From contig NC_008789.1 in assembly GCF_000015585.1 (NCBI RefSeq), positions 1,890,001 to 1,922,000 on the forward strand: a DNA stretch of 32,000 bases, read 5' to 3'. This DNA is from Halorhodospira halophila SL1 (lineage in GTDB: Bacteria; Pseudomonadota; Gammaproteobacteria; Nitrococcales; Halorhodospiraceae). Numbering within the stretch: the first letter of the stretch is position 1; each line of letters begins with the position of its first letter. The position numbers and the translations under genes are program-made. Below the pieces are notes generated by a model. It was not told the origin of the DNA and made no database searches. It saw only the letters and a list, made by a program, of their open reading frames with translations. Shown here one piece after another: positions 9,975-25,069 of the stretch.

Positions 9975-10051
9975 GCATCACCCGCTATCACCGAGACACC
10001 TGACGCCCCGGGCACCCAGCTGCCCGACCCACTACCCAAGCGAGGTACATC

Positions 10052-10432
10052 ATGATCGTCCGCCACATGAAGGACATCATCGGCTCCGACCGCGAGGTCG
10101 AGACCGATGAATTCATCAGCCGCCGGATCATCCTCAAGGAAGACGGGATGGGGTTCTCGTTCCATGAGACCATCATCAAGGCCGGCACCGACATGTTCAT
10201 CTGGTACGCCAACCACCTCGAATCGGTCTACTGCATCTCCGGCAAGGGCGAGATCGAGGTCATCGGCGGCGAGACGTACACCATCGAGCCGGGCATGCTC
10301 TACGGCCTGGACGGCCACGAGAAGCACTACCTGCGTGCCGAGGAAGAATTGCGCCTGATGTGCGTCTTCAATCCGCCGCTGACCGGCCGGGAAGTCCACG
10401 ACGAGAACGGCACCTACCCGCTCCTCGACTGA
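10052..10432 (+). CDS. ectC: L-ectoine synthase
   Basis: Cupin protein with EctC signatures: MIVRHMKDIIGSDREV, GMGFSFHETIIKAGT, WYANHLESVYCISGKGEIE. GAGGT lies 5 nt upstream of the ATG. Confidence 0.95.
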   Translation: MIVRHMKDIIGSDREVETDEFISRRIILKEDGMGFSFHETIIKAGTDMFIWYANHLESVYCISGKGEIEVIGGETYTIEPGMLYGLDGHEKHYLRAEEELRLMCVFNPPLTGREVHDENGTYPLLD

Positions 10433-12072
10433 CCCGCACCCCCTTCTTGCCGTAGCCCCGCCGCCGCCACCTCCGTGGCGGCGCTTCGGGCCCGGCTGCT
10501 CAGGCGCTGGCACTGCGCCAGCTCCTCGCGCACACCGGCCAGTGCAGTACCGCCCGCCCCGGCAACCGCCTCGATGACCTGCCGCGCCAGCTGGCGCTCG
10601 TGGCGCCGGGCCCCCGGCCCGAGCAGGGAGCGCCCCACCCAACCCAGCAGCAGACTGCCGATACTCCCTCCTGCGAGCAGGGCGAAAGGCCAGCTGATGT
10701 CGCCCACCGCTGCCGGTGCGGGCACAGCCGGCAGGGCCAGCCACTCCACCACTCCGCGCACAGCCAGCCAGAGCGCCCCGATCACCGCGGCCGCCTCGCC
10801 CGCCCCGCGGAGCGTACCCAGGCTCCGCCACCAAAAGCGCGGACGCGGCGACCAGGCCAGTTCCCCTAGACGCCCGCGGAGTTCGCCGGCGTGCGGCGCC
10901 GCCGCTGCCGCCGCCAGGTCCCGCAACCGCTCGGCAGCCGGCTCGGGCATCCGCGCCGCAGCCGGTTCGACCGCCTGCAGCAGGCCATCACGCAACACGG
11001 GCTCCGCCACCACCGGGCGCGGCAGGGTCGAGCTGGTACCGGCCATAGCGGCAGAGCGCTTGCGCGCCCCGGAGAACAGCCCGATGGCCATCCGTTTCAA
11101 CGGCGAGCCCAGAGCCCGCGCACCAATCTGGCGATAGGCCCCCGCAGCACCGGTCAGCAGCTCGGTCTCGTTCACCGCCTGGCGCTGGGCGGTCACCAGG
11201 CGCTCACCGTCAAGCTCCAGGCTGCCGGGTTCGGGAAGGCAGGCGGCGGCGCGGACCACCAGTTCGGCCACGTCAGCACGGACCCGCTCCAGCGGGGCGC
11301 GGCGCTCGCGCACCCGGTCCGCGATCCGCTGGGCGAGTGCAGAGACCCCCTCCCCTTCGACCGCGTCGGTGGCCAGCAACTCCACCGCCTGCAGCCCCTG
11401 CCGGCCCAGCAACTCCCGAAGGTGGTCGAGACAGCTCTCTCGGTCGCCTGGATCCAGGCGATCGGCGTGGTTCAGCGCCACCATCAACACCTCGGTGTGG
11501 TGGGCCAGGCGGGCAAAATACCCCTCATGGGCCAGGGCGTGGGCGTACTTGACCGGATCGACGACCCACAGCAGCAGATCGCAGCGCTCGATCAGTCGCT
11601 CGGCCACCTCCCAGTGGGCCTGCACCACCGAGTCGATATCGGGCAGATCCAGGATCACCGCCCCGGCCAGACCACCGCGCCCACCGCTGGCCGGTACGCT
11701 GCGCCGTTCGAAGACCTGCAGCCAGTCGAGCAGCCCGGCGGCCCCGTCCTCCTCGCCCACGGTGACCGCCACCGCATGGTCCGTGGTCGGCCGGCGCACC
11801 CCGGGGGCGGAGACCTCTTCGCCGACCAGGGCATTGACCAGCGAAGATTTGCCGCTACCGGTCCCTCCGGCCACGGCGATAACGACGTGCTCCCGCGACT
11901 GGGCCAGGCGTTCACGGGCACGGCGCTGGAGCTGCGCCATCTCCTCGATCAGCGCCGGCGACAGACGGCCGACACCGAGCGTCTGGAGCGTCTGCAGGGC
12001 GTCCAGGCCGGTGTCGCCGGCGGCGCTCGGCGCACGCGTCGGCGCCTCGGCACTTGCTCCCGCCCAGCGCAT
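10414..12072 (-). CDS. membrane-anchored P-loop GTPase, dynamin-like/HSR1-type (paralog B)
   Basis: G1 GGTGSGKSS (nt 11871-11842), G3-like DLPDIDS, G4-like NHAD. A long Ala/Arg/Leu-rich helical region follows, then two hydrophobic segments near the C-terminus (AAAVIGALWLAVRGVVEWLALPAV, ISWPFALLAGGSIGSLLLGWVG). ATG 12072 shares one base with the upstream stop (TGATG). Confidence 0.75.
   Translation of the reverse strand: MRWAGASAEAPTRAPSAAGDTGLDALQTLQTLGVGRLSPALIEEMAQLQRRARERLAQSREHVVIAVAGGTGSGKSSLVNALVGEEVSAPGVRRPTTDHAVAVTVGEEDGAAGLLDWLQVFERRSVPASGGRGGLAGAVILDLPDIDSVVQAHWEVAERLIERCDLLLWVVDPVKYAHALAHEGYFARLAHHTEVLMVALNHADRLDPGDRESCLDHLRELLGRQGLQAVELLATDAVEGEGVSALAQRIADRVRERRAPLERVRADVAELVVRAAACLPEPGSLELDGERLVTAQRQAVNETELLTGAAGAYRQIGARALGSPLKRMAIGLFSGARKRSAAMAGTSSTLPRPVVAEPVLRDGLLQAVEPAAARMPEPAAERLRDLAAAAAAPHAGELRGRLGELAWSPRPRFWWRSLGTLRGAGEAAAVIGALWLAVRGVVEWLALPAVPAPAAVGDISWPFALLAGGSIGSLLLGWVGRSLLGPGARRHERQLARQVIEAVAGAGGTALAGVREELAQCQRLSSRARSAATEVAAAGLRQEGGAGQSRSG
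10462..10483 (+). terminator. possible ectC 3' stem-loop embedded in the convergent gene
   Basis: cgccgccac (10462-10470), loop ctcc, gtggcggcg (10475-10483): a 9 bp stem 30 nt after the ectC stop. No T-tract. It lies inside the coding 3' end of the minus-strand GTPase gene. Confidence 0.25.
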
Positions 12073-13778
12073 CAGACCAGGGCCTCCAGCGCATCCCGAC
12101 GAGCCTGCACGGCGCTCACCGCCTCCGGGGACGGGGCCGCCGCCGTCAATAACCGGTGGTAGGCCTGCGCCTCGGACTCCGCCAGGGCGGCCACCCGGGC
12201 GTGGAGATCCGCGCGGATATCGGTGATGAGCTGATGGACATTGCGCTCACCGAGGATCCGCGAGAGGACTGTATGGGTGGTGGTGGAACCGGCAGCGGTC
12301 AGCGCCAGCTCGCCGGTGCTCAACCCGCCACTGAGGGTGAAGAGGACCAGCACGGCGCTGGTGAAGGTGGCGTTGATCCCCGTGGTCGCACGGCGTGCCC
12401 AACTGAGCTTGGCCCGCCCGATGGTAGCGACGTGTTCGGCAACCTGCTGCTCCCAGGCCGCCACCAGCGCCTCGGCGTCGGCACGGCGCGCAATGGCCGC
12501 GGTTGACCGCGGCCGCGGATAGCGGGCGAAGATCCCCCGCCCGACCGGATCCTGCTGCCACGCACTCTCTACGCCGGCGGCGGCCTGGTCGAGGACGGCG
12601 TGCAGCATCTCGGCGATGCCAGCCCGCGCCTCCTCCTTGGCCTCCTGCTCGACCTGCCGACCACCGCGAGGGAGCGGCAGCCATCCCAGCCAGCGCCGCG
12701 GCGAGAGCTGCCCCACCGCGGCGTGCAGCTGACGCTGCAGCCAGCCACTCCCGACCAGCTCGGTCCAGCGGCGGAGCACCTCACGGCGCAGGGGCTCGCC
12801 CTCCTGGAGCTGGGTCAGCAAGCGCTCGGGGACATCGGTGTAGCCTTCATCGATGACGGCAGCCAGCCTGCGGGCCGCGGTCCGCTCCGCCTCGACGGCC
12901 TCGAGCAGGGCATCGACCTCTGCCGGCAGGTAACGCACTGCGCCGAGCACCGTTCGGCGCCGGTGGGCAGCACGCTGGTCCGCCGGCGCCAGGGCACGGA
13001 TCCGCTCGAGCACCGGCGCCGCTGCCGAATCGGGCAGGCGCTCGTCAGAGACCGGCGCCGTGGGCAGGTGCGTCGTCTCGACTGCCCGATGGCCGGCCGC
13101 ATCCAGCTTCTCGGCCAGGTCGGGGAGGATCTCCCGCGCCTCGGCCTCGGTCGCCTGGGTGAGCACGACCAGCGTCGAGACGTCCAGCTGGGCCGCCTGG
13201 CGCAGATAGGCCATACCCGCCTCGTCGGCGTAGGTGCGGGCGGTCGCCAGCCAGACCCAGACATCGGCCACCTCCAGCAGACGCTCGGTGGCGGCACGAT
13301 TGGCGGTCTCGACGCTGTCCACATCCGGCGCATCCACCACCACCACCCCCTCCGGTACCGTCTCCAGAGGGGCCGTACGCAGGGCGGCGCGCTCGGCCTC
13401 GGCCGCCAATACCCCACGGCGCAGGACTGTATCCAGGTCCGCCGCTCGGCCGATGACCGTAGGCACCGAGGTGGTGGGGCGGCGCGCGCTGGTCGCGGCG
13501 ACCGCAGACCCCGCCAGGGTGTTGGCCAGCGTCGATTTCCCGGCCCCCGTGCCGCCGGCAAACACCACCAGAAGCGGCTCATCCTGGCGCTCCAGCCGAG
13601 CGATGAGGCCATCGATGCGGCGCAGCAGGCGCTCCCAGGGGAGCAGCCAGGGGGCATCGCGATCCCGAGCGGCCTCGCCATCGAGGCCATGCAGGTCCTG
13701 GCGGAGTTCGGTGAGGGTCTGCTGGAGCTCTTCGCGGTCCATCACGACAAGATACAGGGAAACCCCGCCGGTGATCAC
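12072..13778 (-). CDS. membrane-associated P-loop GTPase, dynamin-like/HSR1-type (paralog A)
   Basis: G1 GGTGAGKST (nt 13559-13530), G3-like DAPDVDS, and TQAT at the G4 position (13160-13149). Helical region, then a hydrophobic segment INATFTSAVLVLFTLSGGLSTGELALTAAG. The start is GTG 13778 or ATG 13742 (MDREELQQ); neither has a strong SD. Confidence 0.75.
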   Translation of the reverse strand: MITGGVSLYLVVMDREELQQTLTELRQDLHGLDGEAARDRDAPWLLPWERLLRRIDGLIARLERQDEPLLVVFAGGTGAGKSTLANTLAGSAVAATSARRPTTSVPTVIGRAADLDTVLRRGVLAAEAERAALRTAPLETVPEGVVVVDAPDVDSVETANRAATERLLEVADVWVWLATARTYADEAGMAYLRQAAQLDVSTLVVLTQATEAEAREILPDLAEKLDAAGHRAVETTHLPTAPVSDERLPDSAAAPVLERIRALAPADQRAAHRRRTVLGAVRYLPAEVDALLEAVEAERTAARRLAAVIDEGYTDVPERLLTQLQEGEPLRREVLRRWTELVGSGWLQRQLHAAVGQLSPRRWLGWLPLPRGGRQVEQEAKEEARAGIAEMLHAVLDQAAAGVESAWQQDPVGRGIFARYPRPRSTAAIARRADAEALVAAWEQQVAEHVATIGRAKLSWARRATTGINATFTSAVLVLFTLSGGLSTGELALTAAGSTTTHTVLSRILGERNVHQLITDIRADLHARVAALAESEAQAYHRLLTAAAPSPEAVSAVQARRDALEALV

Positions 13779-13827
13779 GTGCCCGGTGCACGATCGGTGT
13801 CACAGGGCCGGGACGGCACCCGAGCGG

Positions 13828-15540
13828 CTAGTCCGTCTTTTCCAGGTCCACGGCAATGGGATCGTGGTCCGAAGAGCGATAGGCATCCTCCCGAACGCGA
13901 CCGGGATCACCGTCGAACTCCAGGAAACGGGGCTCGTCGGCATTGATGGGGTGCCGGTGGACCGCGGCCACCCGCTCCGCCAGCGCCGGGTGGGCCTGAA
14001 GGTGATCGAGATAGCCCGACTCGCCCCGAAAGACGTAGGTATACCGGTCGGGCCAGGCGAGGTGTTCGGCGAGCAGATCCACCTTGCCCGCTGCGGCGAG
14101 GGCGCGGGCCGGATCCTCGCCACCGTAGGCGTTGAGATCACCGGCGATGAGCACCGGTAACGCCTCGCTGCGCTCCGCACGCCAGCGGCCGAGGAACTCG
14201 GCCAGGGCCTCGGCCTGTTCGGTGCGACGGTGGTTCCAGCACCCCTGGCCACGATCGACATCCCCGGCATCCGGACACCGCGTCTTCGACTTGAAGTGGA
14301 TCCCGGCCACAGCGAAAGGCTCCCCGCCACCCTGCGGACGAAAACCGACCAGCGGCGGCGGACGATGATGGACCCGCCGGGCATCGCGCACCGTCTCGGT
14401 CACCGGCTGCACGCGGTCCTCGCGGTAGGCCAGAGAGACCTTGATGGCGTCGCTCCCGGTTTCACCCCCGCGGGCCAACCGCCAGGGGTGGCCGGTGCTC
14501 GCCGCTAGGCGCTCCACAAAGTCTTCCGGGGCGTCCTGGCGATTCTCCATCTCGACCAATACCAGCACGTCAGCGTGCAGGGACTCGGCAGCAGCGAGCA
14601 GCTTGGCCCGCTGGCGCTCCAGTTCCACCTCGCTGGCCGCACCTCGCTCGCCGAGGGTCAGGAAGTAGTTCTCAACGTTGAAGGCGGCCACGCGCACCGT
14701 CCCCGCCTCCGGTGGCGGCAACGCTTCCGGCCGCGGGTTGGAGGCTTCGAAATCCGGCGGCTCGGTCGGGTGCAGCCGCCAGGCGCCGAAGGCGTGGGTC
14801 AGCACGCCGGTCAGGTCCGCCACGCGGCTCCCCACCCGACGGGTTCCGTCGTCGTCGAGGTAGGGAATGGGATCGGGCCGCCCCCGGTAGCTGCCATCAT
14901 CCAGCCGCAGCCGGGCTCCAGACAGGGTCGGATCCTCGGGGCCGTCGCCCGGCAGAAAATTGGTCGGCCGAAAGGCGCGCCGCTCTGGGGTGAGCTTCAG
15001 GGTGCCGTAGCGCGGCAGCTCGTAGGTACCGCTGACCACCATCGGCTGCCGGATACGCACCAGCACGCCCTCCAGGCGCTCGGGGGCGGCCGCCGGCCAG
15101 TCCAGCGGATACGGGGTGACCTGCTTGGCACCGCAGTCCTGAACGGCCTCCAGCCACTCGAGCTGCGGTCGCCCCCGGTGCTCACCGGCGCGCCCGGTGA
15201 GCAGGAGCTGACGACCAGGCTCGATCCGCTCGCGCTGCTCGGCGGTCAGCTCCGGGGCGTAGACGAACAGCCCGGCGGGCTTGCCATCCGGCGCCGGCCC
15301 GGTACCCTGGATGAAGAAGCCATCCAGCCCCTCCGCTCCGAGGAAGGCGGCGGTGACCACCCCGTTCACCCGGACCGGATCCTCCGGGGCCTGGCGCCCC
15401 ACACCCTGCCCGGCCAGTTCATGGACCGCGGTGGTCTCCGCTGAGGCGCACGGTTTGGAAGCGACCGCCGCGCCCCCCGCCAGTACCAGCACGGCCCCCC
15501 AGGCGGCCAACACCAGGACTCTGGATACCGATGCGATCAC
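13828..15540 (-). CDS. ExeM/NucH-family extracellular endonuclease (EEP fold), secreted
   Basis: EEP motifs VRVAAFNVENYF, DVLVLVEMEN and SDHDP. The N-terminal domain pattern (VNGVVTAAF..GFFIQ..GLFVY) is typical of ExeM/NucH. The track ORF (to 15657) overlaps the RND gene. I place the start at GTG 15540, preceded by GGGAGGAG, which gives the signal peptide (M)IASVSRVLVLAAWGAVLVLAGGAAVASKPCASA. Confidence 0.85.
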   Translation of the reverse strand: MIASVSRVLVLAAWGAVLVLAGGAAVASKPCASAETTAVHELAGQGVGRQAPEDPVRVNGVVTAAFLGAEGLDGFFIQGTGPAPDGKPAGLFVYAPELTAEQRERIEPGRQLLLTGRAGEHRGRPQLEWLEAVQDCGAKQVTPYPLDWPAAAPERLEGVLVRIRQPMVVSGTYELPRYGTLKLTPERRAFRPTNFLPGDGPEDPTLSGARLRLDDGSYRGRPDPIPYLDDDGTRRVGSRVADLTGVLTHAFGAWRLHPTEPPDFEASNPRPEALPPPEAGTVRVAAFNVENYFLTLGERGAASEVELERQRAKLLAAAESLHADVLVLVEMENRQDAPEDFVERLAASTGHPWRLARGGETGSDAIKVSLAYREDRVQPVTETVRDARRVHHRPPPLVGFRPQGGGEPFAVAGIHFKSKTRCPDAGDVDRGQGCWNHRRTEQAEALAEFLGRWRAERSEALPVLIAGDLNAYGGEDPARALAAAGKVDLLAEHLAWPDRYTYVFRGESGYLDHLQAHPALAERVAAVHRHPINADEPRFLEFDGDPGRVREDAYRSSDHDPIAVDLEKTD

Positions 15541-15559
15541 GGCAGACTCCTCCCTGAGT

Positions 15560-18500
15560 TCAGACCCTGCCTCGAGGCGGACCCGAGGCGTGCTCCAGGC
15601 GCTCCAATTCGGCTCCGACCACGTTGACCGGCGTGGTATACCGCGCCAGCCAATCATAAAGCACCGGGATGACGAACAGCGTCAGCAGGGTAGCGAATCC
15701 CATCCCGCCGATGATCACCGTACCGATGGCAGCCCGGCTCTCCGCCCCGGCACCCAGGGCCAGGACCAGGGGGACCGCCCCGAAGACCGTGGAGACGGCG
15801 GTCATCAACACCGGGCGGAAGCGCAGGGCGGCCCCGGCGTGGATCGCCTCGCGCACGGTGTAGCCCTGGTCCCGGAGCTGATTGGCGAACTCGACGATCA
15901 GGATCCCGTTCTTGGTCATCAGGCCGATGAGCAGGATCATACCGATCTGGCTGTAGAGGTTCAGGCTGCCGCCGCTGAGCAGGAGCGCGCCGAGGGCGCC
16001 GGTAATGGCCAGGGGCACGGCGGTCATGATGATCAGCGGGTGGATGAAGCTCTCGAACTGCGCCGAGAGCACCAGGAAGACGATCAGCAGGGCCAGGCCG
16101 AAGGTGAGGAACACAGCGCCGCCGGCGCGCTTGAACTCATCCGACAGCCCCAGGTAGCTGACCCGCGCCGTCGCCGGCAACTCCTCGGCAGCCACCTGCT
16201 CGAGATAGGCCAGGGCCGCGCCCAGGTCATAGCCCGGCGCCAGCGACGCGGTGAGCGTCACCGCAGGCAAGCGGTCGACGCGACTGAGCACCGGAGGCGC
16301 CCCCTCCTCCTCCAGCGTCACCAGGGCCGAGAGCGGGATCAGTGCCCCGTCATTGAGGCTGCGCACGTGCAGGCGATCGAGGTCGGCGGGGTAGCGCCGG
16401 TCGCCGGCCTCGGCCTGCAGCATGACGTCGTACTCCCGGCCCCGATCCAGGTAGGCCGTCACGGTGCGCGACGCCAGTAGGGTCTGCACGGTACGCCCCA
16501 GCGCCTCGGCACTGACCCCGAGGTCGGCGGCCCGATCCCGGTCGATCCGCACGTTCAGCTGCGGACGCGTTGCGTCGTAGCTGCTGTCGAGATTGAGCAG
16601 CCGCGGGTTGTCGGCCCGGGCCCGATCCAGCACCCGCTCGGCCCAATCGGCCACCTCGTGGTAATCGGTGCCGCCGATGACGAACTGCACCGGTTGCTGG
16701 AAACCGCTCTGGCCGAGCCCTGGCGGGTTCACAGCGAAGGCACGCACACCGGGCACAGTCATCAGCCGAGGCATGGTCTCGGCGACGATCTGCTGTTGGC
16801 TACGCGAGCGCTCCGCCCAGTCCTCCAAGCCGACAATGATGAAGGCGCTGTTGGCGCGCCCACCAAAACCGAGGATGGTCAGCACGCGACGGGCCTCGCC
16901 GGTGTCCTCGCGCAGGGGGCGCAGAATCGCCTCCAGCTCGCGCACACTCGCGTCCGTGTGCGCCGCGGTGCTGCCCTCCGGCGCGCTGGCCGGGACGATG
17001 AACACCCCGCGATCCTCGGTGGGGATCAGCTCCTGAGGCAGTGCCTGGTACAGGGCGTAGGCGCCCACGGCGGCGGCCACCCCGACGCCGAGCACGGCGA
17101 TGGGCATCCCCAGGGCGCGACCGAGCAGGCGGCGGTAGCCGAGTGTCAGACCGGTCAAGACGCGTTCGGTGGCCACCTGCAGCCGCCCCGGGTGCTCCGC
17201 GCGAGGGCGCAGCCACTTGGAGCAGAGCATGCCGGTCAGGGTCAGGGCGACGAAGCTGGAGAAGACCACCGCCGCCGCCAGCACCAGCCCGAACTCAGTG
17301 AACAGCCGCCCCACATTGCCCTCCATGAAGGCGATGGGCACGAAGACTGCTACCAGGGAGATGGTGGTGGCGATGACCGCGAACCCCACCTGCCGCACGC
17401 CGCGGTAGGCCGCCAGCAAGGGCGGCTCGCCCTCATCGATGCGCCGCTGGATGTTCTCCAGCACCACGATGGCGTCGTCGACCACCAGCCCGATGGCCAG
17501 GATCAGGGCCAGCAGCGTCAGCACATTCAGTGAGAACCCCAGGGGAGCCATGACGGTGAAGGCACCAATCACCGCCACCGGGATGGTCACCGAAGGGATC
17601 AGGGTCGCCCGCAGGCTGCGGAGGAAGATGAAGATGGTCAGGACCACGAGAGCCACGGCGATCAGCAGGGTGCGCACAACCTCGCGGATCGACTGACGCA
17701 CGAACTGCGATTCATCGTAACCGACGACCAGGCGCAGATCGCCGGGCAGCTGCTCCTCGATCCGCGCCATCTCCTCGAGTACGGCATCGGCAACGGCGAT
17801 GGTGTTGGCACGGGACTGCCGGATGACGCCCAGGCCTACGGCGGTCTCACCGTTCAGGCGCACGGCGGTGTCGTCGTCTTCGACGCCCCGCTCCACTCGC
17901 GCCACTTCCTCCAGACGGACCAGCTCGTCACCGCGGCGCTCGATTACCAGCCGGGCGAACGCGTCGCGGTCGCGCAATCGAGTGTCGGTCCGCACGGTCA
18001 GCTGCCGGGCGGTCGACTCGATCTCGCCGGCAGGCAACTCGATATTCTCGCGGCGCAGGGCGTTCTCCACGTCCTCGACGGTTAGATCACGGGCCGCCAG
18101 GGCGTCACTGTCGAGCCAGACGCGCATGGCGTAGCGGCGCTCGCCACCAATGCGCACCCGCGCCACACCGTCAAGCACCGAGAGACGATCGACCAGTTGT
18201 CGATCGGCGTAGTCGGTCATCTCCTCGGGGGTCATCCGGCTGCTGCTTAGCGACAACCACATCATCGGCCGGGCATCGGCCTCGGTCTTGGCGACGACCG
18301 GCGGGTCGGCATCCACCGGCAAGTCATCGAGGATCCGCCCGATGGCGTCGCGCACATCGTTGGCCGCAGCGTCGATATCCCGCCCCAGCTCGAATTCGAT
18401 GTTCGTCTCCCCCCGCCCGTCGCGGCTCTCCGAGGTCATCGAACGGATGCCGTCGACGCTGCTCACTGCCGACTCGATCCGCTCGGTGATCTCGGTGTCG

Positions 18501-18676
18501 ATCACCGCCGGGGCGGCACCGGTATAGCGGGTCTCGATGGAGACCAGCGGGGGATCGATGTCGGGGTACTCGCGTACCGGCAACTGAGCGAGGGAGGCGA
18601 TGCCGAGGACGACGATCAACACGCTGGCCACGGTGGCCAGGACGGGACGACGGATCGCAATGTCGGAGAGGATCAA
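15560..18676 (-). CDS. RND efflux transporter permease (AcrB/HAE1-like)
   Basis: 1038 aa with the typical N-terminus IRRPVLATV..LPVREYPDIDPP, 12-TM topology and two large periplasmic loops. The TTG start at 18676 overlaps the adaptor stop (TTGA). Confidence 0.93.
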   Translation of the reverse strand: MILSDIAIRRPVLATVASVLIVVLGIASLAQLPVREYPDIDPPLVSIETRYTGAAPAVIDTEITERIESAVSSVDGIRSMTSESRDGRGETNIEFELGRDIDAAANDVRDAIGRILDDLPVDADPPVVAKTEADARPMMWLSLSSSRMTPEEMTDYADRQLVDRLSVLDGVARVRIGGERRYAMRVWLDSDALAARDLTVEDVENALRRENIELPAGEIESTARQLTVRTDTRLRDRDAFARLVIERRGDELVRLEEVARVERGVEDDDTAVRLNGETAVGLGVIRQSRANTIAVADAVLEEMARIEEQLPGDLRLVVGYDESQFVRQSIREVVRTLLIAVALVVLTIFIFLRSLRATLIPSVTIPVAVIGAFTVMAPLGFSLNVLTLLALILAIGLVVDDAIVVLENIQRRIDEGEPPLLAAYRGVRQVGFAVIATTISLVAVFVPIAFMEGNVGRLFTEFGLVLAAAVVFSSFVALTLTGMLCSKWLRPRAEHPGRLQVATERVLTGLTLGYRRLLGRALGMPIAVLGVGVAAAVGAYALYQALPQELIPTEDRGVFIVPASAPEGSTAAHTDASVRELEAILRPLREDTGEARRVLTILGFGGRANSAFIIVGLEDWAERSRSQQQIVAETMPRLMTVPGVRAFAVNPPGLGQSGFQQPVQFVIGGTDYHEVADWAERVLDRARADNPRLLNLDSSYDATRPQLNVRIDRDRAADLGVSAEALGRTVQTLLASRTVTAYLDRGREYDVMLQAEAGDRRYPADLDRLHVRSLNDGALIPLSALVTLEEEGAPPVLSRVDRLPAVTLTASLAPGYDLGAALAYLEQVAAEELPATARVSYLGLSDEFKRAGGAVFLTFGLALLIVFLVLSAQFESFIHPLIIMTAVPLAITGALGALLLSGGSLNLYSQIGMILLIGLMTKNGILIVEFANQLRDQGYTVREAIHAGAALRFRPVLMTAVSTVFGAVPLVLALGAGAESRAAIGTVIIGGMGFATLLTLFVIPVLYDWLARYTTPVNVVGAELERLEHASGPPRGRV

Positions 18677-19773
18677 CGGGCCGCCTCGGCCAAGCCACTG
18701 CCATTCGCCGCATCACCGGCCGGACGGTTACGTACCCGGACCCGGGTGCCGTCACTCAGACGCTGGTGGCCCAGGGCGACCACCCGATCCGCGGGCTCGA
18801 GTCCGGCGCTGATCTCCACCCGGCCGTTCTGACGCTGCCCGATCTCCACATCCACCTGCCGGGCGACACCGTCGGTGATGCGGTAGACGTAGCGTCGGGG
18901 CCCGTCGAGGATCAGAGCCTCTTCCGGGATGACAACGGCCTGGCGGCGATCGAGTTCCAGCTCCACCTGCAGGAACATCCCGGGTTTGAGGCGGCCGTCC
19001 CGGTTGTCGATCTCGGACTCCAGGCGCAGGGTCCGGGTCACCGGATCGATCCGGCTGTCGATCCGGTGCAGTACCCCGGAGAAACGGTGCTCGGGAAATC
19101 CGGCACTGCCGGCCGTCACCGCCAGGCCGGTCTCGAGTCGCCCGAGCAGGCGCTCGGGAACGGTAAAGACAAGCCGCAGGATCTCGGTATCATCCAGGGT
19201 GGTCACCACGGTCTGCGGGTCGACGTAGGCACCGAGGCTCAGCCCGCGCATACCGACCACGCCCGCGAAAGGGGCGTGAATGCGGCGCTCGCGGAGTTGG
19301 ACCTCGGCCACCCGGACCTGGGCACTGGCCACGGCGACAGCAGCTGCCAGGGTGTCCACATCCTGCTCGGTGACATCCCCGGTCTCCCGCAAGGTACGAG
19401 CGCGACGCAGCTGTGCCTGCACATCCTCTAGGTGGGCCCGGGCCTCCTCCAGGGCCGCCCGCTCGCGCTCGGCGTCGAGCTCAAGCAGGATCTGCCCGGC
19501 TTCCACTGCCGCGCCTTCCTCGAAACCGATGGCGGTGATCCGGCCCGCCGTTTCGGTCACCACATCCAAGGCCTCCCGGGCACGGGCGGTTCCCGTCGCC
19601 CGGAAGGTGTCCCGGATCACGGCCCGCTCGGCATCGGCGGCCTCCACCACCACTTCGCGCCCTGCGGGGGGACCTGCCTGGGACGCCGGCTCGCCGCGGG
19701 TCAGCCAATAACCGCCGAAAGCCACCCCGGCAATCAGCAGGGCAGCGAAGAGGATCTGGTAAGCGGGACGCAT
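18673..19773 (-). CDS. RND efflux periplasmic adaptor (membrane fusion protein)
   Basis: N-terminal TM anchor, coiled-coil hairpin (ERERAALEEARAHLEDVQAQLRRA) and barrel-domain motifs (RIHAPFAGVVG). ATG 19773 is preceded by AGGAG. Confidence 0.9.
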   Translation of the reverse strand: MRPAYQILFAALLIAGVAFGGYWLTRGEPASQAGPPAGREVVVEAADAERAVIRDTFRATGTARAREALDVVTETAGRITAIGFEEGAAVEAGQILLELDAERERAALEEARAHLEDVQAQLRRARTLRETGDVTEQDVDTLAAAVAVASAQVRVAEVQLRERRIHAPFAGVVGMRGLSLGAYVDPQTVVTTLDDTEILRLVFTVPERLLGRLETGLAVTAGSAGFPEHRFSGVLHRIDSRIDPVTRTLRLESEIDNRDGRLKPGMFLQVELELDRRQAVVIPEEALILDGPRRYVYRITDGVARQVDVEIGQRQNGRVEISAGLEPADRVVALGHQRLSDGTRVRVRNRPAGDAANGSGLAEAAR

Positions 19774-22161: not shown

Positions 22162-22203
22162 CCACTGTTGTACATAATACCATCTGTGTATATAGTACTA
22201 CCC
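22162..22203 (+). promoter_or_regulatory. lexA promoter with tandem CTGT-containing operator repeats
   Basis: Two 19-nt-periodic repeats, CCA-CTGTTGTACATAATAC (22162-22180) and CCATCTGT-GTATATAGTAC (22180-22198). TTGTAC (22168-22173), a 17 nt spacer and TATAGT (22191-22196) form a plausible promoter ending 7 nt before the lexA ATG. Confidence 0.55.
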
Positions 22204-22884
22204 ATGGATACTCTTACAGACCGCCAACGCGAAATCCTCGAGCTCATCCGCCGTTCGGTGGCCGAACGGGGATACCCCCCCACTCGCGCCGAGATCTGCC
22301 AAAGCCTCGGCTTCCGTTCACCGAACGCTGCCGAATCCCACCTCCGGGCGCTCGCCCGCAAGGGGGCCATCGAGATGCGGCGCGGCGCCTCGCGGGGCAT
22401 CCGCCTGACCGATGCCTTCGCCGGGGCCGCCCCCGAGCCCTCGCCGGCAACCGACGACCCGAACGCTGGACTGCCGGTGGTCGGGCGGGTGGCCGCCGGC
22501 AGTCCCCTGCTGGCCGAGGAAAGCATCGAGCGCTACTGCCAGGTCGACGCTTCACTATTCTCCCCACCGGCCGATTACCTACTGCGTGTGCGCGGTGAAA
22601 GCATGCGCGATGCCGGCATCCTGGACGGGGATCTGCTCGCCGTCCGCCGCGACACCGAGGCACGGGACGGGCAGATCGTGGTGGTTCGCCTCCACGACGA
22701 GGTGACCGTCAAGTTCCTGGAGCGCTGCAATGGCGTCCTGCGGCTGATTCCCGCCCATCCGGACTACCCGGTCATCGAGGTGGCGGCGGACGGCCAGGAT
22801 GCCGTACTCGAGGGCATCGGCGTGGGCGTACTGCGTAGCCCGCTCGATCCCAGAGGCCCGGAAGGTAACGCGGCATCCGACTGA
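22204..22884 (+). CDS. lexA: LexA repressor
   Basis: [56 protein letters not shown] closely parallels E. coli LexA. The C-terminal S24 peptidase has GESM and [10 protein letters not shown]. Start at ATG 22204 (residue M13 of the track ORF). Confidence 0.95.
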
Positions 22885-22896
22885 GGAGGCGCAACC

Positions 22897-23733
22897 GTGA
22901 GCGAAGCTGCCCTGCAACCGCTGCTGGACGATCCGCGCATCTGGCGCCCCGGCCGCCGGACCGAAACCGCCCGGCACGCCGCCCTGGGTACCGGCTATCC
23001 GGAGCTGGATGCTGCCCTGCCCGATGGTGGCTGGCCGCTGGGCACCGTCACCGAGATCTTCCACCAGCAGCCCGCCATCGGCGAACTCCAGCTGATCCTG
23101 CCCTCCCTGGCAGCACTGAGCCGACGCAGACAGTGGCTGGCCCTGGTCGCTCCCCCCTACATCCCCTACGCTCCCGGGCTGGCCCACGCCGGCGTGGACC
23201 TCTCGCGGGTCTTGCTCATCCACCCCCGAGCCCACGAGGACCACCTCTGGGCCATCGAGCAGGCCCTGCGGAGCGGGACCTGCGGTGCGGTGGTGGGCTG
23301 GCCCCGGCAGGCCGACCGGACCACCCTGCGCCGGCTGCAGCTGGCCGCCGAGACCGGTGGTAGCTGGGCCGCACTGTTTCGTCCGCACAGCGCACGGCAC
23401 CAGGCCTCCACGGCGGCGATCCGCCTGGCCCTGCAACCGGAGGAAGACGCCACCCTTGGCATCGACCTGCTCAAATGCCGAGGCGGGCAACCGCGCCGGC
23501 TGCAGCTTCGCCCGGGGGAGGCCGTACACCCGGCGACCGACGCCCCCGCCGCCACGACCTCGCCGTACCCGGCCCCCCGTGCCGCGGGTGCCACCGGGAC
23601 GGCTGAACCGCCCCTTCAGGAGGCCCCGTACGGCGATCGCGCCCGCCAGGCTGCGCCACCTCCCCGCGGCCGACCGCGGCGGCAGGCGCCCCGCTCCCGG
23701 CGGGCCGCAGGGCAGCTACCCCTCCCTCTGTAG
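22897..23733 (+). CDS. imuA: ImuA / SulA-like translesion-synthesis accessory protein
   Basis: RecA/SulA-like core (GYPELDAALPDGGWPLGTVTEI, GELQLILPSLA, WLALVAPPY), positioned between lexA and imuB. GTG 22897 has GAGGAGG 6 nt upstream and lies 12 nt after the lexA stop. It carries a long Pro/Ala/Arg-rich tail. Confidence 0.8.
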   Translation: MSEAALQPLLDDPRIWRPGRRTETARHAALGTGYPELDAALPDGGWPLGTVTEIFHQQPAIGELQLILPSLAALSRRRQWLALVAPPYIPYAPGLAHAGVDLSRVLLIHPRAHEDHLWAIEQALRSGTCGAVVGWPRQADRTTLRRLQLAAETGGSWAALFRPHSARHQASTAAIRLALQPEEDATLGIDLLKCRGGQPRRLQLRPGEAVHPATDAPAATTSPYPAPRAAGATGTAEPPLQEAPYGDRARQAAPPPRGRPRRQAPRSRRAAGQLPLPL

Positions 23734-23770
23734 CGCTGGTAGCGCGCCCACGCTGCGACCGACCACCACC

Positions 23771-25069
23771 ATGCCGGAGCCACAGACCAGCCCGTTGTGG
23801 CTCGCCGTCCACCTGCCTACGCTCACCGCCGAGGCTCCCTCGGCCTCGGCGGCCCCCACCCTGGAGCAGATCGCCCTATGGGGGCTGGAACTCACCCATC
23901 AGGCGAGCCTCGAGCCCCCGGACACCGTCTTCCTCGAGGTCGGCGGCAGCCAGCGCCTGTTCGGCGGCCGGGCCGCGATCCAGCAGCGCGCCCAAGAGGG
24001 CCTGCGCGAATTGGGCCAACCCCGGGCCGCACTGGCCGCTGCCCCCACCCCGCAAGGCGCCCGACTGCTCGCCCGGGCCAGCCCCGGGATCTGGCTCACC
24101 GACCGCCAGTCGCTCCGCCGCGCGCTGATGCCCCTACCGTGCCACCTCCTCGATCCGACACCGGCCCAGCAGTCCGCACTGAGCACCTTGGGCCTGACGC
24201 GGTTGGGCGATTGCCTGCGCATGCCCCGCAGCGGTCTGCGCCGCCGCATCGGCGACCCCCCTATCCGCACCCTGGAGCAGGCCCTCGGCGAGCGCCCCGA
24301 GCCGCGCCGCTGCATCCCACCACCCCAGCGCTACCGTGGTCGCCTGGAACTCCCGGCCCCGACCGCAGCCACTCAGGCAACCGGCTTCGCCCTGCAGCGC
24401 CTGCTGCGCGCCCTAGTCGGCATGCTTCGCGGCCTCGATGCCGGGATCCAGCAGGCCGCGGTCGCCCTGGAGCACCCGGATGGTCCGGATACGCGGCTGA
24501 CCCTGGGCTTCCTGCGTCCGACCCGCGACCTGGAGCACATGGCCCACATCGCCCGCCACCGGCTGGAACGCCAGGCACTCCCCGATGTGGCCACCGCCGT
24601 CCGTCTCGAGGCGGATCAACTCCTGCCCTACCAAGGGACCAGCGGCGACCTCTTCGAGCGTACGGGCGCCGATGGCGAAGCCGTGCGCACCCTCAGCGAG
24701 CGACTCATCGCCCGCTTGGGGGCCGATTGCGTCCAACGCCTGGCTACCTACCCCGACCCACGTCCGGAGCGTGCCTGGTGCCGCCTACCGTTGGAACACC
24801 CGGACCGGCCCCCCGCCGCAACGCTGCCGCGGCCGGTCTGGCTCTTGCCACACCCGCGGCGTCTACTCAGCGGCGAGGGCGGAGAACCGCACTGGGGCGG
24901 CCCGCTGTGCCTGGAAGCGGGTCCGGAACGGATCGAAAGCGGCTGGTGGGACGACGAGGACGTGGCCCGCGATTACTACGTCGCGCGCGCCCCGGTCGGC
25001 AGCCGGCTCTGGGTCTATCGCGACCGTCGCCCGCCCTACGGTTGGCACCTGCACGGCTTCTTTGCCTGA
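23771..25069 (+). CDS. imuB: ImuB, Y-family DNA polymerase-like protein
   Basis: The N-terminus PLWLAVHLPTL..LE..ALW and the overall layout are typical of ImuB. It follows imuA. ATG 23771 is the only nearby in-frame start. No obvious SD. Confidence 0.8.
   Translation: MPEPQTSPLWLAVHLPTLTAEAPSASAAPTLEQIALWGLELTHQASLEPPDTVFLEVGGSQRLFGGRAAIQQRAQEGLRELGQPRAALAAAPTPQGARLLARASPGIWLTDRQSLRRALMPLPCHLLDPTPAQQSALSTLGLTRLGDCLRMPRSGLRRRIGDPPIRTLEQALGERPEPRRCIPPPQRYRGRLELPAPTAATQATGFALQRLLRALVGMLRGLDAGIQQAAVALEHPDGPDTRLTLGFLRPTRDLEHMAHIARHRLERQALPDVATAVRLEADQLLPYQGTSGDLFERTGADGEAVRTLSERLIARLGADCVQRLATYPDPRPERAWCRLPLEHPDRPPAATLPRPVWLLPHPRRLLSGEGGEPHWGGPLCLEAGPERIESGWWDDEDVARDYYVARAPVGSRLWVYRDRRPPYGWHLHGFFA

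What the first reader, a model, noticed from the sequence alone, without database searches (positions are those of the whole stretch)
10414..13778. Translationally coupled pair of paralogous membrane-anchored GTPases with dynamin-like architecture and no assignable function
Two adjacent proteins of 568 and 552 aa share the same layout.
- Each has a short helical N-terminus, then a P-loop GTPase domain (GGTGAGKST / GGTGSGKSS; DAPDVDS / DLPDIDS).
- About 300 aa of Ala/Arg/Glu/Leu-rich helical stalk-like sequence follows.
- Hydrophobic paddle or TM-hairpin segments sit near the C-terminus.
- The stop of the first gene and the start of the second share a base (TGATG at 12074-12070), which implies coupled, stoichiometric synthesis and probably a heterodimer.

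Tandem pairs are the pattern seen for bacterial dynamin-like proteins (for example LeoA/LeoBC, IniA/IniC and the fused DynA). Those are linked to membrane remodelling or repair, vesicle release and, in some cases, phage resistance. I cannot place this pair in any characterised family by eye.
Basis: partly seen in the sequence, partly recalled or inferred. Interest (0 to 1): 0.7.

Follow-up and report, generated by a model that had tools for sequence, protein, structure and literature searches.

The report
DynA/DynB-type bacterial dynamin gene pair
These two overlapping genes of the salt-loving purple bacterium Halorhodospira halophila encode a pair of bacterial dynamin-like GTPases belonging to the DynA/DynB family already studied in Streptomyces cell division, apparently acquired long ago from actinobacteria, so the finding is real but is a new member of a known kind.

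Summary
Two minus-strand genes, A (12072-13742, 556 aa; the 568-aa GTG start is probably too long) and B (10414-12072, 552 aa), share one base at TGATG. Both have P-loop GTPase domains, about 300 aa of helices and C-proximal hydrophobic segments.

The dynamin-like reading is supported. Both pass the Pfam Dynamin_N threshold. Both AlphaFold models (pLDDT 87 and 91) best match BDLP, IniA, Cj-DLP1/2, LeoA and mitofusin over their full length.

The claim that no characterised family fits is not supported. The pair belongs to the actinobacterial DynA/DynB family, characterised in Streptomyces as divisome-associated dynamin-like proteins. Supporting points:
- 79 of 83 distinct actinobacterial loci carry the same A-then-B arrangement.
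- A Streptomyces A-type protein has its P-loop lysine at K74, and a B-type protein at K128 (published DynA K74A, DynB K129A).
- Published S. venezuelae dynB primers map onto B-type genes.

In trees of both proteins the Halorhodospira clade nests next to Egicoccus/Nitriliruptoraceae, which suggests one ancient transfer of the operon.

Family oddities: an invariant D-x-P-D-x-D-S replaces the switch II DxxG in both proteins, and A lacks the G4 aspartate. The role in Halorhodospira is untested; a membrane-anchored B recruiting A is the best inference.

The parts
12072..13742 (-). Gene A, DynA-type dynamin-like GTPase (556 aa from the ATG at 13742; the alternative GTG at 13778 gives 568 aa)
   Evidence: ORF list. 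Homologs are 556-557 aa. Pfam Dynamin_N 36.4 bits against a cut-off of 27. AlphaFold2 pLDDT 87. Foldseek top hits are BDLP, Cj-DLP, IniA and LeoA. The A1 profile scores A-type genes 240-730 bits against 60-120 bits for the B profile.
10414..12072 (-). Gene B, DynB-type dynamin-like GTPase with a C-proximal hydrophobic helical hairpin (552 aa)
   Evidence: ORF list. Pfam Dynamin_N 42.5 bits. AlphaFold2 pLDDT 91.4. Foldseek top hits are BDLP, IniA, Cj-DLP1 and mitofusin. 42% identity to the Streptomyces B-type protein P0087 over 258 aa, E 2e-44.
12070..12074 (-). TGATG stop/start overlap of A and B (one shared base)
   Evidence: Sequence. An overlap of 4 nt or 1 nt is possible in 59 of 81 related loci.
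13533..13556 (-). A: G1/P-loop GGTGAGKS (K69 in 556-aa numbering)
   Evidence: Translation. G63, G66, G68, K69 and S70 are invariant in 74 sequences.
13470..13481 (-). A: RPTT, candidate switch I / G2 threonine
   Evidence: R88, P89, T90 and T91 are invariant.
13314..13334 (-). A: G3 region DAPDVDS (family signature D-x-P-D-x-D-S; Asp in place of the DxxG glycine)
   Evidence: D137, D140, D142 and S143 are invariant; P139 is present in 71 of 74.
13149..13160 (-). A: degenerate G4 position (TQAT; no guanine-specificity Asp)
   Evidence: Column statistics: T/D/N, then Q/R, then x, then x; only 9 of 74 have D at +3.
12288..12389 (-). A: single Gly-rich hydrophobic segment (residues 452-485), a candidate membrane-dipping paddle tip
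   Evidence: Kyte-Doolittle 19-residue maximum 1.57. Low-confidence tip of the model, residues 448-485. The A family typically shows one peak, median 1.79.
11845..11868 (-). B: G1/P-loop GGTGSGKS (K75)
   Evidence: Translation; invariant in 83 sequences.
11782..11793 (-). B: RPTT, candidate switch I
   Evidence: R94, P95 and T97 are invariant; T96 is present in 82 of 83.
11629..11649 (-). B: G3 region DLPDIDS (same D-x-P-D-x-D-S signature)
   Evidence: D142, P144, D145, D147 and S148 are invariant.
11461..11472 (-). B: G4 NHAD (family N-[QH]-x-D)
   Evidence: N201 and D204 are invariant in 83 sequences.
10624..10836 (-). B: WW motif plus two hydrophobic helices separated by a Pro-rich loop (residues 413-483); a transmembrane hairpin or paddle
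   Evidence: Hydropathy. Model helices 413-444 and 461-504. 58 of 83 family members have two peaks >= 1.6, median maximum 2.47. Streptomyces DynB is reported to have two transmembrane segments (PMC8748795).
10414..10432 (.). 19-bp overlap of the convergent 3' ends of gene B and ectC
   Evidence: ORF coordinates, sequence. No terminator-like site was found. The same convergent arrangement with ectCBA occurs in H. halochloris.

Best explanation
The two genes are a dynA-dynB operon: a heterotypic pair of bacterial dynamin-like proteins of the family known from Actinomycetota. An ancestor of Halorhodospira probably acquired the operon as a unit from a Nitriliruptoria-like actinobacterium.

Shown here:
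- Both proteins have the BDLP/mitofusin-type fold: a GTPase head, a helical neck and trunk built from N- and C-terminal helices, and a hydrophobic tip.
- They fall into two distinct orthologous groups that are almost always encoded A-then-B with overlapping or nearly abutting stop and start codons.
- The Streptomyces members of these groups are the published DynA and DynB.

Inferred mechanism:
- The overlap gives coupled synthesis.
- B sits in the cytoplasmic membrane through its helical hairpin, and it keeps a full set of guanine-nucleotide motifs (GxxGxGKS, RPTT, D-x-P-D, N-[QH]-x-D).
- A is cytosolic or only peripherally membrane-dipping, and it lacks the G4 aspartate.
- B recruits A in a nucleotide-dependent way, through the G domains and/or stalks, to form a membrane-bound assembly.
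- That assembly remodels or scaffolds the membrane. By analogy with Streptomyces, the most likely site of action is the division site, where DynB recruits DynA and the pair stabilises or times FtsZ rings.

I put the family and architecture assignment at about 0.9. A division-site role in Halorhodospira specifically I put at about 0.35.
For: Fold:
- AlphaFold2 models have pLDDT 87 and 91.4.
- Foldseek against the PDB puts BDLP 2j69, IniA 6j72, Cj-DLP1/2 5owv, LeoA 4aur, Drp1 and mitofusin on top, at E 1e-9 to 1e-6 with 590-700 aligned columns.
- Both proteins score above the Pfam Dynamin_N threshold.

Family:
- All 80 genome loci found with the B profile are Actinomycetota.
- 79 of 83 distinct loci have an A-type gene directly upstream of the B-type gene. 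The remaining four are three loci cut by contig ends and one too divergent to classify.

Link to the published DynA/DynB:
- The Streptomyces evansiae A-type protein has its P-loop lysine at residue 74. This equals the DynA K74A mutant (bioRxiv 10.1101/2025.06.23.661029).
- The S. gardneri B-type protein P0398 starts MVDVD, has its lysine at 128 and ends AGVRGR. S. venezuelae dynB primers encode VVDVDVEA at the start and TGVRGR at the end, and the published mutant is DynB K129A.
- Primer ss190 (peptide EALDELTV) maps at 20-22 of 24 nt to the same site of B-type genes in at least 10 Streptomyces loci, just before the hairpin.
- Five B-type proteins end in TGVRGR.
- DynB has two transmembrane segments and dynA precedes dynB (PMC8748795, PMC6428758).

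Transfer:
- Neighbour-joining trees of A and of B both place the Halorhodospira clade beside contig L086 and then Egicoccus/Nitriliruptoraceae, inside the actinobacterial radiation.
- GC3 of the pair (0.84-0.85) matches that of its neighbours, and the synteny is kept in H. halochloris. The transfer is therefore old.

Coupling: stop/start overlap is possible in 59 of 81 loci.
Against: - No experiment exists for Halorhodospira.
- The Streptomyces partners SsgB, SepF2 and SepX are actinobacterial proteins (my knowledge; only this window could be read), so the division-site mechanism cannot be carried over as it stands.
- The H. halophila B hairpin is much less hydrophobic than the family norm. 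Its Kyte-Doolittle 19-residue maxima are 1.74 and 1.47 against a median of 2.47, and helix 1 contains Arg and Glu. It may be a paddle rather than a true transmembrane hairpin.
- The invariant Asp in place of the switch II glycine, and the missing G4 Asp in A, leave it open whether A, or either protein, hydrolyses GTP in the canonical way.
- The heterodimer itself was not modelled here.
- The trees are distance-based and midpoint-rooted, with no support values.
- The taxon of the sister contig L086 is unknown (GC 72%).
Confidence: 0.85

Rival explanations
1. The pair is a stress-responsive membrane surveillance and repair machine, or a phage-defence machine, like Bacillus subtilis DynA or the LeoA/LeoBC 'dynamins' defence system. 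In this reading it assembles at damaged membrane to seal or tether bilayers and has nothing to do with division.
For: - It has the same overall fold class as B. subtilis-type and LeoA-type DLPs.
- There are weak PADLOC matches to LeoA and LeoBC, E 8e-7 to 1e-4.
- Halorhodospira lacks the actinobacterial partners through which DynAB acts in Streptomyces (my knowledge).
- The conserved neighbourhood is envelope- or stress-flavoured: ectABC, an RND pump and relA/spoT.
Against: - The PADLOC matches cover only the GTPase head.
- There is no third LeoABC-type gene and no defence-island context in the window.
- The closest characterised homologs by far are DynA/DynB.
- The neighbours are convergent or separately transcribed housekeeping genes, so adjacency says little.
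Confidence: 0.25
2. The pair has been put to a new use in Halorhodospira: building or maintaining the lamellar intracytoplasmic photosynthetic membrane stacks. This would be analogous to the proposed roles of cyanobacterial and chloroplast DLPs at thylakoids.
For: - Outside Actinomycetota, the named hits are Halorhodospira plus one MAG labelled Halochromatium. Both are phototrophs with intracytoplasmic membranes (my knowledge).
- The pair is retained across species that differ by more than 10% in GC content, which indicates selection.
Against: - This is purely circumstantial, with no link to photosynthesis genes in the window or in L085.
- Other Ectothiorhodospiraceae with similar membranes did not appear among the named hits.
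Confidence: 0.1
3. The proteins are ribosome-associated or small-GTPase-type enzymes (Era/EngA/'50S ribosome-binding GTPase'/'YfjP family'), or ABC/ECF-transporter ATPases, as many database names say.
For: - Source names such as '50S ribosome-binding GTPase', 'YfjP family GTPase', 'ABC transporter' and 'EcfA2'.
- MMR_HSR1 scores just above threshold: 22.9 and 29.7 bits against a cut-off of 21.9.
Against: - Those matches cover only G1 to G3.
- NCBIfam scores for Era, Der, HydF and MnmE are 34 bits or less against cut-offs of 116-380.
- ABC_tran E is about 0.01, on the P-loop only.
- The full-length structural matches at the top of both lists are all dynamin-superfamily proteins.
Confidence: 0.02

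Closest known systems
Streptomyces DynA/DynB (S. venezuelae vnz_12110/vnz_12105; Schlimpert et al. 2017, as cited in PMC6104087; PMC8748795; bioRxiv 10.1101/2025.06.23.661029)
   Same: - Same two orthologous groups: the profiles score Streptomyces genes 340-370 bits (A) and 420-475 bits (B).
- Same dynA-then-dynB order with coupled stop and start.
- Same P-loop, RPTT and D-x-P-D-x-D-S signatures.
- B/DynB carries a two-helix hydrophobic hairpin before the C-terminal helices.
   Different: - The host is a unicellular Gram-negative phototrophic gammaproteobacterium, not a sporulating actinomycete.
- Sequence identity is only about 30% (A, over 340 aa) and 42% (B, GTPase domain only).
- The long disordered N-terminal extension of Streptomyces DynB is absent (K75 against K129).
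- The hairpin is less hydrophobic.
- A carries a more hydrophobic tip than Streptomyces DynA.
- The partners SsgB, SepF2 and SepX are not expected in this host.
- No Whi/Bld developmental regulation applies.
Egicoccus / Nitriliruptoraceae DLP pairs (uncharacterised; for example Egicoccus halophilus L001)
   Same: - Nearest named relatives in both trees, at about 37-41% identity over 85-90% of the length.
- Same gene sizes (557 and 537 aa) and an overlapping stop/start.
- Saline or alkaline habitats (my knowledge).
   Different: - Different phylum and different flanking genes: a DUF4032/Kdo kinase-like gene is coupled upstream in Egicoccus.
- The EEP-family genes near both loci are unrelated beyond the domain level.
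Nostoc BDLP1, Campylobacter Cj-DLP1/2, Mycobacterium IniA, ETEC LeoA (solved BDLP structures)
   Same: - Best structural matches over the full length, E 1e-9 to 1e-6.
- Pairing in operons is typical of BDLPs (PMC6104087).
   Different: - There is no sequence-level relationship beyond the generic P-loop GTPase. Profile searches of the PDB return only Irga/IRG, Der, FeoB, septin and similar proteins among the 60 best shown, with no IniA, BDLP or LeoA there.
- The DxxG glycine is replaced by Asp.
- TM-scores are low (0.2-0.4) because of different hinge states.
Mitofusin / Fzo1
   Same: GTPase head plus helical bundle, and a membrane hairpin near the C-terminus. Truncated mitofusin and Fzo1 give the best local superpositions, with rmsd 5-7 A and TM about 0.45-0.5 on the target.
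   Different: These are eukaryotic outer-mitochondrial-membrane fusogens. There is no evidence of common ancestry closer than the superfamily.

Membership tests
Dynamin superfamily / bacterial dynamin-like proteins (fold level) | Match to the dynamin-type GTPase domain model above the curated threshold | tested here: met
   Pfam PF00350 Dynamin_N: A 36.4 bits, B 42.5 bits, cut-off 27.
Dynamin superfamily / bacterial dynamin-like proteins (fold level) | Large GTPase head followed by a helical neck/trunk (stalk) bundle that includes the N-terminal helices | tested here: met
   AlphaFold2 secondary structure and confidence. Foldseek full-length alignments to BDLP, IniA, Cj-DLP, LeoA and Drp1, all at probability 1.00.
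Dynamin superfamily / bacterial dynamin-like proteins (fold level) | Canonical G1-G4 motifs (GxxxxGKS/T, switch I Thr, DxxG, N/TKxD) | tested here: inconclusive
   G1 and a conserved RPTT are present in both. G3 is D-x-P-D (Gly replaced by Asp) in both, family-wide. G4 N-[QH]-x-D is present in B and absent in A.
Dynamin superfamily / bacterial dynamin-like proteins (fold level) | Membrane-binding element (paddle or transmembrane hairpin) at the tip of the trunk | tested here: met
   B has two hydrophobic helices with a Pro-rich loop. A has one Gly-rich hydrophobic segment at the low-confidence tip of the model. Actual membrane binding was not tested.
Dynamin superfamily / bacterial dynamin-like proteins (fold level) | Nucleotide-dependent self-assembly and membrane remodelling | not testable with these tools
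   Needs purified protein, GTPase assays and liposome assays.
DynA/DynB family (Streptomyces/Actinomycetota) | Sequence homology of A to DynA and of B to DynB, each distinct from the other paralog | tested here: met
   - The profiles separate A-type genes (A1 240-730 bits against A2 60-120) from B-type genes (A2 230-680 against A1 70-115) in 79 loci, Streptomyces included.
- BLASTP: A against Streptomyces A-type, E 8e-23; B against Streptomyces B-type, E 2e-44.
- The Streptomyces proteins are tied to the published DynA/DynB by K74 and K128-129, by the N- and C-terminal peptides, and by primer mapping.
DynA/DynB family (Streptomyces/Actinomycetota) | dynA immediately upstream of dynB in one operon | tested here: met
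   The window shows a TGATG overlap. 79 of 83 distinct loci have A upstream of B. Overlap is possible in 59 of 81 loci. The dynAB operon is described in PMC6428758.
DynA/DynB family (Streptomyces/Actinomycetota) | DynB anchored by two transmembrane segments; DynA without them | tested here: inconclusive
   The B hairpin is present at the homologous position but is weakly hydrophobic in H. halophila (maxima 1.74 and 1.47 against a family median of 2.47). A has one hydrophobic segment. The two transmembrane segments of DynB are reported in PMC8748795.
DynA/DynB family (Streptomyces/Actinomycetota) | Family signature RPTT and D-x-P-D-x-D-S | tested here: met
   Invariant in 74 A-type and 83 B-type sequences, the window proteins included. 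Present in Streptomyces as DAPDIDS and DLPDHDS.
DynA/DynB family (Streptomyces/Actinomycetota) | Septal localisation, interaction with FtsZ, SepF2, SsgB and SepX, and stabilisation of Z rings | not testable with these tools
   Known only for Streptomyces (PMC8748795; bioRxiv 10.1101/2025.06.23.661029). Only a 32-kb window of the Halorhodospira genome is available here.
IniA/IniC (mycobacterial isoniazid-inducible DLPs) | Sequence-level homology to IniA/IniC and an iniBAC operon context | tested here: not met
   Profile searches of PDB sequences do not list IniA (6j72/6j73) among the 60 best matches shown at E <= 1. Only the fold is similar. There is no iniB-like gene nearby.
LeoA/LeoBC 'dynamins' defence system | Confident match to the LeoA and LeoBC models, and a three-gene leoABC arrangement | tested here: not met
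   PADLOC gives E 8e-7 to 1e-4, 19-27 bits, limited to the GTPase head. The locus has two genes, flanked by ectC and an ExeM/NucH nuclease gene.
Era/Der/'50S ribosome-binding GTPase' (MMR_HSR1), and the ABC/ECF ATPase annotations | Score above the curated family cut-off, with family-specific domains (KH, a second G domain, the ABC signature) | tested here: not met
   NCBIfam Era, Der, HydF and MnmE score 34.5 bits or less against cut-offs of 116-380. ABC_tran scores 16 bits against a cut-off of 25. The matches cover only the P-loop region.

The most novel reading that the evidence does not exclude
Two possibilities remain open.

1. The DynA/DynB family may work as an asymmetric, non-canonical GTPase pair. 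Every member has an acidic residue in place of the switch II glycine (D-x-P-D-x-D-S), and only the B subunit keeps the guanine-specificity motif. A would then be a nucleotide-binding regulatory partner rather than a true GTPase.

2. The family may have a generic activity that does not depend on host-specific partners, acting on the cytoplasmic membrane and/or FtsZ. That would explain how an actinobacterial operon could be taken up and kept for a long time by a Gram-negative phototroph that lacks SsgB, SepF and SepX. It would also explain why Streptomyces DynAB blocks septation when expressed in E. coli (bioRxiv 10.1101/2025.06.23.661029). In that case Halorhodospira would offer a minimal natural system for finding the core function of this dynamin family.
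Probability: 0.25. Interest if true: 0.55.

Novelty: new member of a known kind. Interest (0 to 1): 0.35.

Why it matters
DynA/DynB are the only bacterial dynamins with a demonstrated role in cell division, and they are usually described as a feature of filamentous actinobacteria. This window shows that the same operon is stably kept in a unicellular Gram-negative purple sulfur bacterium.

That has three consequences:
- It corrects misleading database names such as '50S ribosome-binding GTPase', 'ABC transporter' and 'EcfA2'.
- It documents a cross-phylum transfer. The habitats of donor and recipient look similar (my knowledge), but that was not tested.
- It offers a host without the Streptomyces-specific partners, in which the core activity of the pair could be separated from developmental regulation.

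The family-wide replacement of the switch II glycine by aspartate, and the loss of G4 in the A subunit, are concrete and testable mechanistic oddities. For the genome annotation itself this is an ordinary result: a known protein family correctly recognised.

Tried and rejected
- Single-sequence and profile searches of PDB sequences gave only generic P-loop GTPase hits. Sequence alone could not place the proteins, so structure prediction plus Foldseek was needed.
- NCBIfam gave no family above its cut-off.
- I looked for Rosetta-stone A-B fusions among long A-family representatives. The extra length is acidic or Pro-rich low-complexity sequence, not a B domain.
- I tested whether the EEP-family gene next to the pair was transferred along with it, because Egicoccus also has one nearby. 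The two proteins share only domain-level similarity, and the window gene is a typical ExeM/NucH nuclease. Rejected.
- A compositional sign of recent transfer was rejected. GC3 equals that of the neighbours; the higher overall GC comes from codon positions 1 and 2, that is, from amino-acid composition.
- The promoter and terminator scan of 10000-14300 found nothing, so transcript boundaries remain unknown.
- The terminal primers ss105 and ss106 gave no informative DNA matches in the loci first fetched. The link came from the internal primers and later from protein termini.
- The Schlimpert 2017 paper itself is not held. Its content is cited only through later papers.
- A literature search for Halorhodospira plus dynamin, and one for BDLP phylogeny, found nothing relevant.

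Full report
**1. Observation**

The minus strand carries two long ORFs, 12072-13778 (568 aa from GTG) and 10414-12072 (552 aa from ATG). The junction reads CTGGTCTGATGCGCT, so the TGA of the first gene and the ATG of the second share one base.

Close homologs of the first protein are 556-557 aa. Its real start is therefore probably the ATG at 13742, and I number protein A from there.

The two proteins are paralogous only across the N-terminal helices and the GTPase domain. BLASTP gives 33% identity over 186 aa, E 3e-17. Profile-profile comparison gives E 1e-32 over columns 7-267 against 10-248. The helical halves show no detectable sequence similarity.

Exact copies of both proteins are on record for Halorhodospira halophila (P0001, P0091). 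That fits the 64-73% GC of the window and the ectABC genes next door.

**2. Fold**

Both proteins exceed the Pfam gathering score for Dynamin_N (36.4 and 42.5 bits against 27). The alternative labels (MMR_HSR1, RsgA, ABC_tran, Era, Der) rest on the P-loop region alone and are far below the curated cut-offs.

Sequence searches of the PDB, even with family profiles, return only generic P-loop GTPases.

AlphaFold2 models built on 74- and 83-sequence alignments are confident:
- A: pLDDT 87.0, pTM 0.80.
- B: pLDDT 91.4, pTM 0.84.

Each model shows N-terminal helices, a mixed alpha/beta GTPase head, and then long helices to the C-terminus.

Foldseek against the PDB puts Nostoc BDLP, M. smegmatis IniA, Campylobacter DLP1/2, LeoA, Drp1, dynamin and mitofusin/Fzo1 on top for both. 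E-values are 1e-9 to 1e-6, with 590-700 aligned columns. The global TM-scores are low (0.2-0.4), which I attribute to different hinge states between the models and the crystal structures. The dynamin-like architecture is therefore supported.

**3. Membrane segments**

B has two hydrophobic helices (about 420-447 and 459-480). A WW motif precedes them, a Pro-rich loop separates them, and basic residues follow. In the model they form the tip of a long helical hairpin. Across the B family, 58 of 83 sequences show two peaks of at least 1.6, with a median maximum of 2.47. The H. halophila protein is at the weak end (1.74 and 1.47).

A has a single Gly-rich hydrophobic stretch (452-485, maximum 1.57). 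It coincides with the only low-confidence part of the model. The A family typically shows one such peak, median 1.79. A single segment in the middle of a helical trunk is more consistent with a membrane-dipping paddle than with a transmembrane anchor. That last point is inference.

**4. Which family**

Beyond Halorhodospira and one MAG labelled Halochromatium, all hits that carry an organism name are actinobacterial: Egicoccus, Nitriliruptoraceae, Cellulomonas, Mycolicibacterium, Streptomyces and others.

A scan of one genome per species with the B profile returned 80 loci, all Actinomycetota. Profiles of the two families separate the genes cleanly. In 79 of 83 distinct loci an A-type gene lies directly upstream of the B-type gene. 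Three of the remaining four are cut by contig ends, and one is too divergent to classify. A stop/start overlap of 4 nt or 1 nt is possible in 59 of 81 loci, and it is annotated as such in the Egicoccus, Mycolicibacterium, Streptomyces and H. halochloris records.

The Streptomyces members are the published DynA/DynB:
- dynA (vnz_12110) precedes dynB (vnz_12105) in one operon (PMC6428758).
- DynB has two transmembrane segments (PMC8748795).
- The published P-loop mutants are DynA K74A and DynB K129A (bioRxiv 10.1101/2025.06.23.661029).
- The A-type protein of S. evansiae has its P-loop lysine at exactly residue 74.
- The B-type protein P0398 of S. gardneri starts MVDVD, has its lysine at 128 and ends AGVRGR.
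- The S. venezuelae dynB cloning primers encode VVDVDVEA at the start and TGVRGR at the end, and five B-type proteins end in TGVRGR.
- The internal primer ss190 (EALDELTV) matches the same site at 20-22 of 24 nt, just upstream of the hairpin, in at least ten Streptomyces B-type genes.

So A is a DynA-type protein and B a DynB-type protein. They are not IniA/IniC or LeoA/LeoBC relatives at the sequence level.

**5. Family signatures**

Both families keep GxxGxGKS and an invariant RPTT.

In both, the switch II motif is D-x-P-D-x-D-S. The position of the canonical DxxG glycine (DLPG in dynamin, my knowledge) is invariably aspartate. This holds in all 74 A-type and all 83 B-type sequences, and in Streptomyces DynA and DynB (DAPDIDS and DLPDHDS).

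B keeps N-[QH]-x-D at G4 (N and D invariant). A has [T/D/N]-[Q/R]-x-x, with Asp at +3 in only 9 of 74 sequences.

The pair is therefore asymmetric in its nucleotide-base contacts. I cannot explain the Asp-for-Gly replacement, and I have recorded it as unexplained.

**6. Origin in Halorhodospira**

Neighbour-joining trees of each family (154 and 165 sequences, profile-aligned, midpoint-rooted) agree. The Halorhodospira clade groups first with an unassigned 72%-GC metagenomic contig (L086), then with Egicoccus/Nitriliruptoraceae, and the whole group sits within the actinobacterial radiation. The congruence of the two trees argues for transfer of the operon as a unit. The wide actinobacterial distribution argues for an actinobacterium-to-Halorhodospira direction.

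The transfer is old:
- The pair occurs in H. halophila, H. halochloris and H. abdelmalekii at 59-90% (A) and about 47-78% (B) identity.
- The arrangement ExeM/NucH nuclease gene, then A, then B, convergent with ectCBA, is shared by H. halophila and H. halochloris.
- GC3 of the pair equals that of its neighbours. The higher overall GC comes from codon positions 1 and 2.

The A family as a whole is large, with 1321 representatives at E <= 1e-30.

**7. Mechanism**

Shown here: the fold, the family, the operon structure, the conserved motifs and the hydrophobic tips.

Inferred:
- Coupled translation yields the two subunits together.
- B is held at the cytoplasmic membrane by its hairpin and binds guanine nucleotide.
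- B recruits A in a nucleotide-dependent way, as reported for Streptomyces.
- The assembly scaffolds or remodels membrane.

In Streptomyces the pair acts at division sites, stabilising Z rings and controlling when septa form. Streptomyces DynAB also blocks septation in E. coli, which hints at an activity that does not need actinobacterial partners. A division-site role is therefore my leading guess for Halorhodospira, at about 0.35. Membrane repair or stress comes second at about 0.25, and a role at intracytoplasmic membranes third at about 0.1. None of these can be tested with the tools at hand.

**8. Verdict**

The dynamin-like, coupled-pair interpretation is right. The statement that no characterised family fits is wrong. 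This is a new member of a known kind, the first I can document outside Actinomycetota. Its interest is modest and lies in the cross-phylum transfer and the odd switch II and G4 features of the family.

Noticed in passing
window 22168-25069 (+): A lexA (TIGR00498, 209.6 bits) and imuA (NF033429, 214.9 bits) cassette is followed by a long ORF with ImuB-like termini (LWLAVHLPTL... and ...WHLHGFFA). The ImuB call is by eye only, with no Pfam or NCBIfam hit. No dnaE2 follows inside the window. This roughly 3.7-kb, 74% GC block lies between relA/spoT and pnp, which are only about 400 bp apart in H. halochloris.
   Followed up: partly
window 10414-10432: The 3' ends of ectC (+) and gene B (-) overlap by 19 bp, with no terminator-like hairpin detected. 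Convergent transcription of the ectoine operon and the dynamin pair would therefore collide. The same convergent layout occurs in H. halochloris.
   Followed up: partly
window 13828-15657 (-): An ExeM/NucH-family extracellular endonuclease gene (NF033681, 415.7 bits against a cut-off of 300) lies 85 bp upstream of gene A on the same strand, and it is conserved there in H. halochloris. It is unrelated to the small EEP gene near the Egicoccus pair. Whether it is co-transcribed with the pair is unknown.
   Followed up: partly
window 13314-13334 and 11629-11649; alignments A1 and A2: A D-x-P-D-x-D-S motif replaces the canonical switch II DxxG in every DynA-type and DynB-type sequence examined. The A family also lacks the G4 aspartate. 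I have no mechanistic explanation.
   Followed up: partly
loci L004-L084 (actinobacterial dynAB loci): In about 47-54 of 79 loci, an SSB-domain gene and an ABC-F-like ATPase gene lie 1.5-4 kb downstream of dynB (Pfam labels from L004). This is probably vertical synteny, and no functional link was examined.
   Followed up: no
proteins P0231, P0248, P0252, P0283, P0312, P0319, P0336, P0339: Some DynA-type representatives carry 400-800 aa acidic, Pro-rich or repeat-like low-complexity extensions at either end. None is a DynA-DynB fusion.
   Followed up: partly
locus L001 4706-6004 (Egicoccus halophilus): A DUF4032/Kdo kinase-like gene overlaps the start of the DynA-type gene by 4 nt. This suggests a three-gene operon in that lineage, which is not seen in Halorhodospira, Mycolicibacterium or Streptomyces.
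   Followed up: no
window 15560-19773 (-): An RND efflux pump (1038 aa) and its HlyD-type membrane-fusion protein lie between the nuclease gene and relA/spoT in H. halophila. They are absent from the corresponding position in H. halochloris.
   Followed up: no
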